From Aplysia californica (Eukaryota): a DNA stretch of 64,000 nt. Below the pieces are notes generated by a model that searched no databases, had not been told where the DNA came from, and worked only from the letters and a program-made list of their open reading frames with translations. The stretch's first letter is position 1. Each line of letters opens with the position of its first letter. The position numbers were made by a program, and so were the translations under genes. Shown here in pieces: positions 7,101-12,251 of the stretch. Where the stretch lies: the NCBI RefSeq assembly GCF_000002075.1, contig NW_004797481.1, positions 803,942-867,941 of the forward strand. The letters are read 5' to 3'.

Positions 7101-10100
7101 ACTGAAAAAGATCATGTGGATCTTCACCCCAGGCCATGCTGGAGTCAAGGGCAATGAGCGGGCTGATGAGATAGAGGGGAAAGCAAAACCTGAAAGAAAG
7201 CTGTGCCCTGACAAACCTGAAATTGTGCGTTCAGTCAGGGAAAAACGAGAAAAAGAACAAGAAGAGTCAAAATACCATCATCTTGAGTGACTTCGTGAGC
7301 TTGGAATTGGGATGGGGTGCCTGCAGAAGATCAAGACTTAGTGAGAGGAGCAGAAGGCTATGGAATCAAACATTGCTTGGGAACCGTCAGCATCTACACA
7401 CTTCAAGATGTGTGCTTCTTCAGGGGACAGAGCGCTTATGGGAATGCCCCTTGATGTCGGTCCTTCACACAAGTAACAAGAGAATACAAGTTCACCTGAT
7501 TGGCAGGGCGGGTCTGATTCCCCCCTTCAGCAAATGGGTTGTAGTCATCTAGTGCACCTTGTCTTGGGGCTCCAGACCCTGCAGCTTGCTGTACTGACGG
7601 GTCCTGGAAAGAAGAAAATATGATTTAAAAGTTTTTCCAGTCAAACAACTGTTCCATGGTAGTTGAAGAAAATACCTGACCTTGTTCAATTTCAAATAGA
7701 TTTTCTGAGCATCAAGATACAGGGAGGCTCATTTTTCAACTTTCAATGTAAAAATATTTACCATGTGTTCAACACAGAAAAAAAAAATCCAGTAAGAGCA
7801 GTGATAAACAACTTTTAATGGATGTCATTAATGCTTATAACAATTCAAACATTTGATAAAATGAGGAAAATTTTCCAGATGTAAATCAATTTCTTGCAAC
7901 TGTAGCATCACAGCAACTGCAACAATAGTATCCAACAAAGAAGGCATTAGCCTAAAACTATATCAAGTTCTATAAAGCCCTCTTTCAAACATCTGAGCTG
8001 CAGGTGTTAAAAATAAAGGCCAACTGTTTGTGTCACTGGTCTTAATGAATTTAAACCTTTTCTTTTGCCGAAAAAAGTGATACTATTATTAATCAGCCTA
8101 CAGTCAAACTCGGATATAACAGGACAAACGGAATCAGCAGTTTTCCCCCCGTTATAAATAGGGAGTCCTGTTATTACCATTATCACGGGAAACTACTAGT
8201 ACTATTGCACCTTCAGGTAACTATATATTCGATTACCTCAGATCCTTTTCAAGTGGGCTATTTTGCTGACACTGAGATGGAATCGATCAGTGACCCCAAC
8301 ACTATCACTATAGACAGCCACCCATTGTCGAGAGAAAGCAGATTTTTTTTAGACAGGTGGACAACTTGGACAGTGTCATCATATTTTAAAAAACGCAAGG
8401 GTGGACATGGGAAGCGGTCATTTGTACAGGTGATTGTCTTAGACAGGTGGCTGTTAGAGCAGGTTTGACTGTACTTGCTTTTCACAAGGCCAAACCACTT
8501 TGAAGGCATGACATAATTAGGGCATTTAGACAACAGAAAGTGGCACATGATTATATGATTTGGTAAAATAGGAAAATTATTAGGCCTTTAATAAAATAAT
8601 AACAACGGTTCACTATTTTTATTTACCTGACTAAGTATTGATCGGCTGTGGCGGCGTGGCATTTTTGGCGGGTTACTTCCGGTAAACCGCTGAACGCTTC
8701 TAGGATGCCCCACCGCCACAGCTAATCGGTTGTAAACATGGAGGTTTGGCGGGATCAGCTGAGATACCCGAGATGTATACAGAAAAATGACCATTTACGG
8801 CTCAACAGATGATAAAAGGCATATAAATAAAGCCATATATTTTCTTAAAGCTGATAGAAAGAGCCAATAAAAAATGATTAGCGTGTAGTCGCTCAGCTGG
8901 ACCGCTCCACTTTATCAATCGATATCTTGGCCAAGAGATGCTCTGCGAGGTCAAGACTTGCAAAGTCAGTGGTCACTATTTATAACTTTGACCTGTAATT
9001 TACTATGTCCTTTTCCATATAAGGAATACTGGAATTTTCCATTGAAAAAGGTCAGCGTCTATGTCCTTTACATAGGGCCTGCGCGCTTCCTGGTCGAAGT
9101 AGGTCAGCCCTATACATAGGGCCTGCACGCTTTCCGGGTAGCCCGGCTCATGCCCTTTATATACAGGGCCTGCGCGTTTCCTGGGTTAAAGTGGGGAGCG
9201 GCTGGTAACGGGGGACCGAACTCTAGATCTAGATTTACATTCTAAAAACTTTTCATGAGCGTTTTTTCCGCAAAATCCAAAAAATATTTTAAAAAGAGAA
9301 ACGCCGAGCGTATCAAACTAGAATCTAGTCAAGGCCACCTCTATTCTCACCCCGGGTGAGAATAGCGCAGGCGAGTCTTTTGGCCATTCTCACCCGGTGT
9401 GCGTTCACCGCTATAGCCTAGATCTAGATCTAGGCCAAGCCAACCAATTTTGCCTTCACCCTAACCACAGAATTCTACACTGTGATAACAGAAAAATTGT
9501 AGAATTCTGTGCCGTGAACAAACGTTCCATTACTATGATTACTACTGTTAACCTACTAAAAGCGTACAATTTTGTCTGTGGGCAGTGGAGAGAGAGAAAG
9601 AGAGAGAGAGAGAGAGGAGTAGCGCGAGAATTTCCGGGCAAAACAAAATGGCGACCCGCGTAGTTCGGCTCGATTCGAAAAGTTAAATTTTATAGCCGTA
9701 GCATCTTTGTAGACGACAAAATTAATTTACTTTTGTGTTTTAACATCATTTTAAAACTTTGTTTTGGTCAATTTGATCGTCCACACCGAAAGACAGTATT
9801 CAGAAAGAGACAGAGAGAGAGAAGGGGGGAGGAGTAGATCTTGCGAGAACTTCCGGACAAAACAAAATGGTGACCCCTCAGCCCTGTAGTTCGGCTCGAT
9901 TCGAAAAGTGAAATAGCCATAGCATCTTTGTAGTCGATAAGGAAGTGGTTATTCTCATCCGAGGTGAGAATAGAAAAACGATCTACCTCTCACCCCGGGT
10001 GAGACGTGCCAGCGTAGGCTATTCTCACCCGGTGCGAAACAAGACCTGCTTTTCCTCATTTTGGAATACTGTCTATCGGTGTGGATGATCAGATTGATAA

Positions 10101-12251
10101 AAGCCAAGAAAAAATTACGTTATAGCACAAAAGTAAGCTAATTTGATCGTCTTCAAAGATGCTATGGCTATTTCATTGTTCGAATCGAGCCGAACTATGC
10201 GGGTTGCCATTTTGTTTTGCCCGGAAGTTCTCGCAAGATCTACTCCTCCCCTCTCTCTGTCTCTTTCTGAATACTGTCTATCGGTGTGGACGATCAAATT
10301 GACCAAAACAAAGTTAAAAAATGATGTTAAAACACAAAGGTCAAAAGTAAATTAATTTGGTTGTCTACAAAGATGCTACGGCTATTTAACTTTTCGAATC
10401 GAGCCGAACTACGCGGGTCGCCATTTTGTTTTGACCGAAAGTTCTCGCGCTACTCCTCTCTCTGTCTCTTTCTCTCCACTGCCCACATACAAAATTGTAC
10501 GCTTTTAGTAGGCTACAGTTGTAATGGAACGTTTGTTCACGGCACAGAATTCTACAGTTTTTCTGTTATCACAGTGTAGAATTCTGTGGTTTAGGGTGAA
10601 AGCAAAATTTGTTGGCCTAGATCTAGGCTATAACGGTAAACGCGCACCGGGTGAGAATAGCCAAAAGACTAGCCTGCACTATTCTCATCCCGGGTGAGAA
10701 TAGAGGTGGCCAGTCGATAAAATTAGCTTACTTTCGTGCTATAACGTAATCTTTGCTTTGCCTTTATCCATTTGATCATGAAAGTGGCTATTCTCACCCG
10801 CCGGAAGTTCTCGCAAGATCAACTCCTCCCCTCTTCTCTCTCTCTCTGTTTCTTTCTGAATACTGTCTATCGGTGTGGACGATCAAATTGACCAAAACAA
10901 AGTTAAAAAATGATGTTAAAACACAAAAGTAAATTAATTTGGTTGTCTACAAAGATGCTACGGCTATTTAACTTTTCGAATCGAGCCGAACTACGCGGGT
11001 CGCCATTTTGTTTTGCCCGGAAATTCTCGCGCTACTCCTCTCTCTCTTTCTCTCTCCACTGCCCACAGACAAAATTGTACGCTTTTAGTAGGCTACAGTT
11101 GTAATGGAACGTTTGTTCACGGCACAGAATTCTACAATTTTTCTGTTATCACAGTGTAGAATTCTGTGGTTTAGGGTGAACGCAAAATTTGGTGAACGCG
11201 TGTCTGTGGGCAGTGGAGAGAGAGAAAGAGAGAGAGAGAGAGAGGAGTAGCGCGAGAATTTCCGGGCAAAACAAAATGGCGACCCGCGTAGTTCGGCTCG
11301 ATTCGAAAAGTTAAATAGCCGTAGCATCTTTGTAGACAACCAAATTAATTTACTTTTGTGTTTTAACATCATTTTTTAACTTTGTTTTGGTCAATTTGAT
11401 CGTCCACACCGATAGACAGTATTCAGAAAGAGACAGAGAGAGAGAGAAGAGGGGAGGAGTAGATCTTGCGAGAACTTCCGGGCGGGTGAGAATAGCCACT
11501 TTCATTCTCACTCCGGGTGAGAATAGAGGTGGCCTTTGATCATCCACATCGAAAGAAAGTATTCCGAAATTAGGAAAAACAGGTCTTGTTTCACACCGGG
11601 TGAGAATAGCCTACGGTGGCAAGTCTCACCCAGAGCCCAGAGAGTGAGAGGTCGATCGTATTTCTATTCTCACCCCAGGTGAGAATAGCCACTTCCTCTA
11701 GTCAAACCCTACCCCAGAGCGTCCAATATCTTCCAATTTGAAACTGGATCACAATAGATAGGCCTAGACCATTAAAGAAGGAATCCACATGCATGCCACT
11801 ATCCCAGCCCTGTACTGTTGCTGACTGCTGTCAATTGCAACCCCACCCCTTCAATCTTGCCACTCTGCTGTGTTCTTTGAGCCCACTGAACTGTACTTAG
11901 TAAGTGATGCCAATCCTTCAGCTTCCATACCACAAAAACGTTGTAGGGTAATAAGAACCATAGTAATACCCGCCTCTTCTTGTTGTCAAAGCACACACCT
12001 CTCGACCGGTAAAAGAGTGAGTGGGATCAAGACAACTTTAACTTTAGTCAAAGGTACCTCTGCCTCTTATATTTTTTCTACACATAGCATAGCACAGCGA
12101 CGTTGCGATGAATTCTCCTCGACTCCGGACGTCTAGATTTCTAGACATTGTATGTGTCGTGAATAAGAACGACATTACAATTGAACTCCCTTACCGAAAA
12201 TGGACTCGAAGCATTTGGATCCGCAAAAGGGTTGGAATCAAAGTCGGACAT
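1060..12251 (-). CDS. SCAMP1: Secretory carrier-associated membrane protein (SCAMP), 5' part. Exons 12251-12195, 7603-7496, 5612-5481, 1129-1060; gene continues beyond window start
   Basis: Spliced translation MSDFDSNPFADPNASSPFS|DPSVQQAAGSGAPRQGALDDYNPFAEGGNQTRPANQ|SAGVPPPRSATAQPAIMTPSEDPPPYSQSSAQKVDTSELQKRQE|ELERKAAELQRKEQEMKNAQMAG. This matches the SCAMP N-terminus (NPF repeats, coiled coil RQEELERKAAEL). All junctions are GT-AG and in phase. Confidence 0.95.
3327..3841. mobile_element. hAT-like MITE
   Basis: 8-bp TSD GTTACTAT (3319-3326, 3842-3849); imperfect termini CAGTGCCGGGCGGTACC / GGTACCTGCCCATCCCTA. Confidence 0.75.
5481..5612 (-). CDS. SCAMP1: SCAMP coding exon 3
   Basis: tacag|SAGVPP...QPAIMTP...PPPY...ELQKRQE|gtggga, 132 nt. 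Confidence 0.92.
6248..7475 (+). mobile_element. 5'-truncated, decayed RNase-H-encoding LINE (I group)
   Basis: Frameshifted peptides LDRVQNEAM.MILG, VVVYTDGS, SSMRMEIEAI, WIFTPGHAGVKGNERAD; 10-bp TSD ACAAGAGAAT (6238-6247, 7476-7485). Confidence 0.9.
7496..7603 (-). CDS. SCAMP1: SCAMP coding exon 2
   Basis: ttctttccag|DPSVQQ...DDYNPFAE...ANQ|gtgaac, 108 nt. Confidence 0.93.
8101..8471. mobile_element. Tc1/mariner (Tigger/pogo-like) MITE
   Basis: TA|CAGTCAAAC ... GTTTGACTG|TA; related sequence at ~60468-60636 in reverse orientation. Confidence 0.75.
9941..10711. mobile_element. Nested full-length copy of the same MITE, inverted
   Basis: 9-bp TSD AGTCGATAA (9932-9940, 10712-10720); reverse complement of the outer copy. 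Confidence 0.88.
10780..11534. mobile_element. Second nested copy, rearranged into a foldback
   Basis: 9-bp TSD TTTGATCAT (10771-10779, 11535-11543); inverted arms 10780-11071 and 11201-11503. Confidence 0.85.
12195..12251 (-). CDS. SCAMP1: SCAMP coding exon 1
   Basis: ATG at 12251, MSDFDSNPFADPNASSPFS, donor gtaag. Confidence 0.95.

What the first reader, a model, noticed from the sequence alone, without database searches (positions are those of the whole stretch)
9324..11705. Russian-doll MITE: a transposon inserted twice into itself, each copy with its own 9-bp TSD
Seen: the outer element 9333-11696 (TSD TCTAGTCAA) contains an inverted full-length copy 9941-10711 (TSD AGTCGATAA) and a second inverted copy 10780-11534 (TSD TTTGATCAT). 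Removing the two inserts restores an ~820-bp element colinear with the inner copy. The two targets lie about 60 bp apart, and both inserts are opposite to the host. Established: 9-bp TSDs with G-starting termini fit Mutator/MULE elements. Inference: two independent hits into a small target suggest self-targeting or local hopping, perhaps through transposase tethering on the repeated palindrome CTATTCTCACCCGGGTGAGAATAG. This may be an undescribed self-homing MITE family.
Basis: partly seen in the sequence, partly recalled or inferred. Interest (0 to 1): 0.75.

Follow-up and report, generated by a model that had tools for sequence, protein, structure and literature searches.

The report
Snail transposon nested inside its kin
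A small non-coding jumping element in a snail or sea-slug genome has been hit twice, perhaps three times, by members of its own family, which is a real but known kind of nesting whose cause (attraction to its own kind or just a busy spot) cannot be told from this one site.

Summary
The nesting is real. All three 9-bp duplications are perfect and sit at the stated coordinates. Removing the inserts restores an 820-bp element colinear with insert 1 (8.3% substitutions). The host is a heterobranch gastropod; the site lies 3.7 kb upstream of the AP-3 beta start codon.

Corrections: insert 2 is not a plain copy. It lacks about 258 bp near one end and carries a 292-bp fold-back whose inner arm ends flush at an element terminus, so it may be a third self-insertion. 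The palindrome is a 25-mer with a central base, and neither target lies in it.

Insert 1 was not copied from the host: its duplication froze two host-specific changes that insert 1 lacks. The arrivals were independent.

Best reading: same-family target preference, as reported for plant MITEs (about 0.5). An abundant family plus an open region plus safe-haven survival is nearly as likely. Orientation (2 of 2) and spacing are not significant. MULE is likely but untested; Merlin also fits. No other family copy was available, so self-homing is unproven.

The parts
9324..9332 (.). Left TSD of host element (TCTAGTCAA)
9333..9931 (+). Host element, left part: A end (GGCCACCT, 25-bp palindrome 9341-9365, half-site near 9384-9397), internal unit 1 (9614-9828), start of unit 2 (from 9829)
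9932..9940 (.). Left TSD of insert 1 (AGTCGATAA); carries two host-derived changes absent from insert 1's own homologous site
9941..10711 (-). Insert 1: full-length 771-bp copy, inverted; B end left (palindrome 9949-9973), A end right (palindrome 10679-10703)
10712..10720 (.). Right TSD of insert 1
10721..10770 (+). Host, 50 bp of unit 2 between the two targets
10771..10779 (.). Left TSD of insert 2 (TTTGATCAT)
10780..11200 (-). Insert 2 body: short variant (B' end GAAAGTGG plus one half-site, about 258 bp deleted behind it); outer fold-back arm 10780-11071, spacer 11072-11200
11201..11503 (+). Inner fold-back arm: one-ended copy of the same short variant, opposite to insert 2, ending flush at a B' terminus; possible third self-insertion with its other end deleted
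11504..11534 (-). A-end stub of insert 2 (31 bp; terminal GGCCACCT and most of the palindrome); 36 bp of A-end sequence missing at the fold-back
11535..11543 (.). Right TSD of insert 2
11544..11696 (+). Host, right part: end of unit 2 and B end (half-site near 11596-11609, degenerate palindrome, 25-bp palindrome 11664-11688, terminus CCACTTCC)
11697..11705 (.). Right TSD of host element

Best explanation
Shown: an 820-bp non-autonomous cut-and-paste DNA transposon with two unlike ends (A and B, each GG plus 6 bp plus repeated 25-bp palindromes) and two ~205-bp internal units inserted upstream of AP-3 beta. It later received two separate insertions of family members in unit 2, each by a 9-bp staggered cut. 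Insert 1 came from a different copy than the host. Insert 2 belongs to a short variant and carries a fold-back. Inferred: the transposase is MULE-type (about 0.7; Merlin about 0.2) and binds the repeated palindromes, as Muta1 binds its subterminal repeats. Inferred: the fold-back is a third arrival, a short-variant copy joined by its B' end into insert 2's A-end palindrome in inverted orientation, after which the centre of the resulting near-perfect inverted repeat was deleted (about 0.5; a template switch during gap repair about 0.4). Inferred cause of the pile-up: resident copies are better-than-random targets for their own family, most simply because transposase bound to a resident copy's palindromes captures an incoming complex and it inserts within about 100 bp. 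The confidence below refers to this last, causal step; the structure itself is about 0.97.
For: Perfect TSDs flush with termini. No other copy of this family in 59,461 non-N bases outside the locus, yet two or three arrivals in about 0.8-2 kb. With uniform insertion, doubly hit hosts expected per Gb are 0.0004 (1,500 copies), 0.014 (5,000) and 0.38 (15,000); triply hit, 3e-7 to 0.003. TSD1 holds 2 host-derived changes that insert 1 lacks; reversion of both is about 2e-4. Distances from the common node in 282 shared columns are host 7, insert 1 8, insert-2 body 4, inner arm 1, roughly the nesting order (derived). All 4-5 differences between the arms are derived on the outer arm, as expected if the inner arm came later from another copy (P 0.06-0.125, suggestive only). 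The B' joint at 11503/11504 is flush with the terminus. Precedent: frequent self-insertion in rice Castaway and Gaijin and same-family nesting in carrot, maize and rice; Muta1 transposase binds subterminal repeats.
Against: One locus, chosen out of a genome-wide scan. With 15,000-50,000 copies, or with target space restricted to 10-20% of the genome, chance gives 0.35-36 doubly hit hosts, and an empty rest-of-window is still likely at 15,000 copies (P=0.41). The site lies in a CpG-undepleted zone near a gene start (CpG o/e 0.75-0.79 against 0.38-0.44), where MULEs are reported to concentrate. Neither proven target lies in a palindrome. Orientation and spacing are not significant. The third joint has 2 bp of AT microhomology with the end of TSD2 (chance 0.09), which favours a template switch, and the B' terminus reads GA, not GG, so its mobility is uncertain. 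No transposase was linked to these ends.
Confidence: 0.5

Rival explanations
1. No family-specific targeting. An abundant family that favours open, gene-proximal DNA hit the same 820 bp twice by chance, the insertions survived because an old transposon is a neutral safe haven, and a genome-wide scan picked out the rare case.
For: Expected doubly hit hosts reach 0.35-1.4 with 5,000 copies in 10-20% of a 1-Gb genome. The region is CpG-undepleted and 3.7 kb from a start codon. Remnants of a related palindrome-bearing element lie 4-6 kb away. A genic preference is reported for Muta1, and the safe-haven idea for nested MITEs.
Against: No other copy of this family in the remaining roughly 7.5 kb of the same zone or the rest of the window. 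If the fold-back is a third insertion, chance falls to 0.004-0.035 for the same settings.
Confidence: 0.33
2. Local hopping: the inserts jumped from donors close by on the same chromosome or sister chromatid.
For: Local hopping is general among cut-and-paste elements (passages). The two arms of insert 2 are 99% alike, which fits a hop from a sister chromatid for that one event. Insert 2's deletion spans both target sites, so descent from the host is not excluded for it.
Against: Insert 1 is not a copy of the host as it stood. Only one unit-1 column (22) could be a change shared by host and insert 2, while the host's private indels are absent from both inserts. No donor or empty site was recognised in the window.
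Confidence: 0.1
3. The element's internal units make their own open chromatin (they carry motifs resembling ETS, YY1 and TCTCGCGAGA promoter elements; labels recalled), so any transposon, not only this family, inserts just downstream of them.
For: 4 of 8 ETS-like, 5 of 9 YY1-like and 6 of 7 TCTCGCGAGA-like matches in the window fall in the element. Element CpG o/e is 0.99. Both targets lie in unit 2, downstream of these motifs.
Against: Only same-family inserts are seen. Unit 1 has the same motifs and was not hit in any of 4 copies. The motif matches are counts of repeated copies, not binding data.
Confidence: 0.04
4. Assembly artefact from collapsing near-identical repeats.
For: The scaffold has 10 N gaps, and the arms share a 197-bp exact stretch.
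Against: The nearest gap is 23 kb away. Each copy has its own alleles, and three different perfect TSDs sit flush with termini. The inner B' end, A-end stub and TSD2 lie within about 60 bp.
Confidence: 0.03

Closest known systems
Self-inserted MITE multimers (rice Castaway and Gaijin, maize Tourist-Zm, carrot DcSto)
   Same: Non-autonomous elements nested in their own family by independent insertion events (passages of PMC5172404, and PMC3695323; the primary paper, Jiang and Wessler 2001, was not held).
   Different: Those are plant Tourist/Stowaway types with 2-3 bp targets and a statistic from thousands of copies. This is an animal element with a 9-bp TSD, seen at one locus.
Muta1 and Muta1NA1 (Aedes aegypti MULE, type 2 foldback)
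   Same: G-starting ends, 8-9 bp TSD, repeated subterminal motifs that bind transposase, unequal repeat numbers at the two ends of non-autonomous copies, genic preference (passages of PMC5499845 and PMC5225508).
   Different: Muta1 has near-identical 145-bp TIRs, a palindromic terminal 10-mer and 12-bp direct repeats. Here the TIR is about 33 bp, the first 8 bases of the two ends match at only 2 positions, and the repeats are 25-bp palindromes. The word 'nested' does not occur in the main text of PMC5225508.
Merlin superfamily
   Same: Terminal GG, 8-9 bp TSD, TIRs of 24 bp or more that can be highly imperfect, internal tandem repeats up to 163 bp (passages of PMC8101967).
   Different: Reported as almost restricted to cephalopods among molluscs in one survey (PMC10294476). 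No IS1595-type transposase seen here.
Mu killer and Ac killers (maize); double Ds (recalled, not read)
   Same: Inverted duplication of one end of a DNA transposon, able to fold into a long hairpin; insert 2 folds at -609 kcal/mol against a shuffle mean of -205 (passages of bioRxiv 10.1101/2020.01.07.897926).
   Different: Those duplicate kilobases of an autonomous element and are shown to give siRNA and silencing. Here the arms are 292 bp of a non-autonomous element, with no evidence of transcription.

Membership tests
Non-autonomous TIR DNA transposon (MITE-like) | Terminal inverted repeats flanked by a TSD | tested here: met
   25 of 33 terminal bases match between ends; three perfect 9-bp TSDs
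Non-autonomous TIR DNA transposon (MITE-like) | No coding capacity | tested here: met
   0 of 9 ORFs overlapping the element hit Pfam at E<=0.01 (2, 7); no Rfam hit in the window
Non-autonomous TIR DNA transposon (MITE-like) | High copy number, uniform size (strict MITE) | not testable with these tools
   No genome available; two size classes (about 770-820 and about 490 bp) at this locus
Mutator/MULE | TSD of 8-11 bp | tested here: met
   9 bp, three times; definition from PMC6446971 passage
Mutator/MULE | Typically long TIRs (14-500 bp range), often with subterminal repeats | tested here: inconclusive
   About 33 bp and imperfect, 1.5 palindromes at A and 2.5 at B: inside the range but not diagnostic
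Mutator/MULE | Partner MULE DDE transposase with the same termini | not testable with these tools
   No transposase family among 146 and 80 ORFs; no eukaryotic DNA collection available
Merlin | Terminal 5'-GG | tested here: met
   5 of 7 termini begin GG; the two B' termini begin GA
Merlin | TSD of 8-9 bp | tested here: met
   9 bp; definition from PMC8101967 passage
Merlin | Partner transposase with DDE_Tnp_IS1595 domain | not testable with these tools
   None in the ORFs scanned
Self-inserting MITE family (Castaway/Gaijin type) | Nested copies arise by independent insertions | tested here: met
   Separate TSDs; insert 1 not derived from the host
Self-inserting MITE family (Castaway/Gaijin type) | Genome-wide excess of same-family nesting | not testable with these tools
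   One locus; expectation spans 1e-5 to 36 depending on unknown copy number and target space
Mu killer / Ac killer loci | Inverted duplication of transposon sequence | tested here: met
   Arms 10780-11071 and 11201-11503
Mu killer / Ac killer loci | Transcribed to dsRNA, yields small RNAs, silences the family in trans | not testable with these tools
   No RNA data

The most novel reading that the evidence does not exclude
An animal DNA-transposon family that homes to its own copies through transposase bound at palindromic end repeats, inserts mainly opposite to the resident copy, and so routinely builds hairpin loci like Mu killer that could shut the family down by small RNAs.
Probability: 0.12. 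Interest if true: 0.72.

Novelty: new member of a known kind. Interest (0 to 1): 0.36.

Why it matters
If only a pile-up, it is a tidy example of nested MITEs and a family to add to a mollusc repeat library. If the family truly prefers itself, it extends same-family targeting from plant Tourist/Stowaway MITEs to an animal 9-bp-TSD element, and it supplies thousands of natural events for testing whether transposase bound to resident ends steers insertion. An orientation bias would tie self-targeting to the origin of hairpin silencers. The question is cheap to settle: it needs only the genome and one nesting count.

Tried and rejected
Looking for more copies: none in the window outside the locus. 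Two exact-pattern scans of bacterial and archaeal genomes, in case of host-derived contigs, gave 0 loci each. Metagenome and viral contig collections stayed unchecked, and no eukaryotic genome, Repbase or Dfam was available, so the family may already have a library name.

Looking for a transposase: 146 of 158 longer ORFs were scanned. Of the 12 left out, 7 inside the element were scanned and 5 low-complexity ones were dropped. One search also scanned 73 of 81 short ORFs; 8 in the LINE remnant were dropped. No transposase family was hit.

The two palindrome clusters at 15.9 and 17.6 kb as ends of one longer relative: no convincing TSD (5 candidate 8-9-mers with 1 mismatch, none flush with GG termini at both ends), so left open.

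A target-site consensus: the four 9-mers all start and end in A/T (P about 0.02, noticed after the fact); too few to claim.

Rfam: 0 hits. The bacterial promoter scan was uninformative for an animal. My early reading of three internal units was wrong; there are two.

Literature: searches listed no paper on this family or on self-nesting MITEs in molluscs; search 37 on tethering to transposase binding sites returned 0 papers; 'double Ds' had 0 occurrences in the 12 papers listed by one search. Two papers were not held, so the 9-bp TSD of AcademH is recalled only and that superfamily was not tested. No supplements were read.
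Full report
Setting. The window is animal DNA with 10 N gaps. Exons matching Adaptin_N and AP3B1_C families run on the + strand from about 22.9 to 47 kb. One C-terminal exon matches AP-3 beta of Physella, Arion, Bradybaena, Elysia and Biomphalaria at 68-78% identity, Haliotis at 65% and bivalves at about 53%, which points to a heterobranch gastropod. The first exon is 15420-15551 (36 of 45 identical to the Physella N-terminus). 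The finding ends 3.7 kb upstream of it, in a zone of about 8-18 kb with CpG o/e 0.75-0.79 against 0.38-0.44 on either side.

Observation. The three 9-bp duplications are perfect, abut the termini and do not extend further. Removing both inserts gives 820 bp, colinear with the 771-bp insert 1 (63 of 763 columns differ). Insert 1 has a single copy of each target site, so the duplications were made on insertion. The targets start 59 bp apart. An assembly artefact is unlikely: the nearest gap is 23 kb away, each copy has its own alleles, and the longest exact match between host and insert 1 is 50 bp.

Anatomy. The two ends differ. The A end reads GGCCACCT and the B end GGAAGTGG, matching at 2 of the first 8 bases and 25 of the first 33. 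The six bases behind the GG form a near-direct rather than inverted repeat across the element. The body holds two ~205-bp units about 80% alike. Both targets are in unit 2, about 110 and 50 bp from the innermost B half-site. No ORF in the element matched Pfam (0 of 9).

Insert 2 is a short variant: about 258 bp behind its B end are gone, leaving 21 bp of end that begins GA. It also carries a fold-back. Bases 10780-11071 pair with 11201-11503 (2 substitutions in 292 columns, a 1-bp indel, 10 bp of microsatellite change), folding at -609 kcal/mol as RNA. The inner arm ends exactly at a B' terminus, joined into the A-end palindrome 31 bp from the end, and 36 bp of A-end sequence are missing at the other junction. 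Two readings remain. One is a third inverted self-insertion followed by deletion of the centre of the resulting palindrome: the joint is flush, all 4-5 arm differences are derived on the outer arm (P 0.06-0.125), and the inner arm is closest to the common ancestor. The other is a template switch during repair: the joint shares 2 bp (AT) with the end of TSD2, chance 0.09. I put these at about 0.5 and 0.4.

Where the inserts came from. A TSD freezes the host sequence at the time of insertion. With unit 1 as reference, both copies of TSD1 carry two host-derived changes (columns 111 and 116), while insert 1's own site has the ancestral bases. Insert 1 was therefore not copied from the host; double reversion would be about 2e-4. 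TSD2 is uninformative, and insert 2 has lost that region. Distances from the common node over 282 columns are 7, 8, 4 and 1 for host, insert 1, insert-2 body and inner arm. Host and insert 1 differ more in the B-side segment (32 of 259) than elsewhere (28 of 483; P=0.003); in unit 2, 13 of 21 differences are host-derived. I have no explanation for this beyond an older or recombinant host.

Is it more than chance? No other family copy lies in 59,461 non-N bases. With uniform insertion in 1 Gb (an assumed size), doubly hit hosts expected genome-wide are 0.0004, 0.014, 0.38 and 14 for 1,500, 5,000, 15,000 and 50,000 copies. Restricting targets to 10-20% of the genome raises this 25- to 100-fold. 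Because the window came from a genome-wide scan, these totals are the right comparison. Chance is thus excluded only if the family is modest in size. A true third event would lower the figures by roughly one to four orders of magnitude. Spacing (P=0.14) and orientation (P=0.25 or 0.125) add nothing.

Mechanism. Shown: cut-and-paste insertion with a 9-bp stagger, twice, from at least one foreign donor. Inferred: the palindromes are transposase binding sites, by analogy with Muta1, whose subterminal repeats strengthen binding and excision (passages). Inferred: resident copies attract their family through that bound transposase (0.5). Rivals are abundance with an open region and safe-haven survival (0.33), hopping from nearby donors (0.10), self-made open chromatin (0.04) and artefact (0.03).

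Comparison with what is known. Same-family nesting by independent insertions is reported for rice Castaway and Gaijin and for maize and carrot MITEs (passages of PMC5172404 and PMC3695323; the primary paper was not held). MULEs have 8-11 bp TSDs and 14-500 bp TIRs (passages of PMC6446971) and occur in all mollusc genomes of one survey, whereas Merlin was nearly confined to cephalopods (passages of PMC10294476). Merlin nevertheless matches the terminal GG, the TSD, the imperfect TIRs and the internal repeats (passages of PMC8101967). The defining test, a partner transposase, could not be run, so the element works like a non-autonomous MULE but is not filed as one. The fold-back resembles Mu killer and Ac killers in shape only (passages of bioRxiv 10.1101/2020.01.07.897926). 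Local hopping and hotspot passages came from PMC7827188 and PMC2577343. All papers were seen as search listings or keyword passages, none whole. Searches listed nothing on this family; Repbase and Dfam were not available.

Verdict. A real, well-preserved nested transposon, richer than first described, of a known kind. Self-homing is a fair hypothesis at about even odds and is untested. Interest 0.36.

Noticed in passing
window 15892-16007 and 17577-17638: Two clusters of the same palindrome in AP-3 beta intron 1 (3.5 copies at 33-35 bp spacing; 1.5 copies next to a GGCCAC like the A terminus). Possibly the ends of an older 1.75-kb relative; no TSD and no coding match found.
   Followed up: partly
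window 9614-9940 and homologous units: The ~205-bp units carry a GA tract and motifs resembling ETS, YY1 and TCTCGCGAGA promoter elements (labels recalled); several copies now lie 4-6 kb upstream of a gene start.
   Followed up: partly
window 9333-9340 and 11689-11696: The hexamer inside the terminal GG is a near-direct repeat (CCACCT / CCACTT) across the element, so the outermost 8 bp are not an inverted repeat beyond the GG.
   Followed up: no
host units 1 and 2 (9614-9940, 11544-11570): At two positions the host has the same private base in both internal units (columns 116 and 195), hinting at conversion between units or a separate sub-lineage.
   Followed up: partly
window 15420 to about 46979, + strand: AP-3 complex subunit beta gene, multi-exon.
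   Followed up: partly
window 6239-7290 (+) and 17648-18016 (-): Broken RNase H-bearing remnants, probably of non-LTR retrotransposons (Pfam RNase_H; translations).
   Followed up: no
window about 12690-13210, with partial matches at 26048, 30090, 34654, 40819, 49862, 54913 and 60066: A dispersed repeat with what looks like a tRNA-derived head and a stem-loop plus A-rich tail, probably a SINE; not identified.
   Followed up: no
window 28952-29358 and 32847-33245: Two 72-76% complementary arms on either side of an AP-3 beta exon, likely two opposite copies of an old repeat.
   Followed up: no
window 28240-28466 and 53339-53565: A 227-bp repeat, 96% identical.
   Followed up: no
window 58148-58274: A 20-bp tandem array of 6.3 copies next to an N gap.
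   Followed up: no
window 9000-9190: Short degenerate repeats just left of the host element; the host may itself sit beside or in an older repeat.
   Followed up: no
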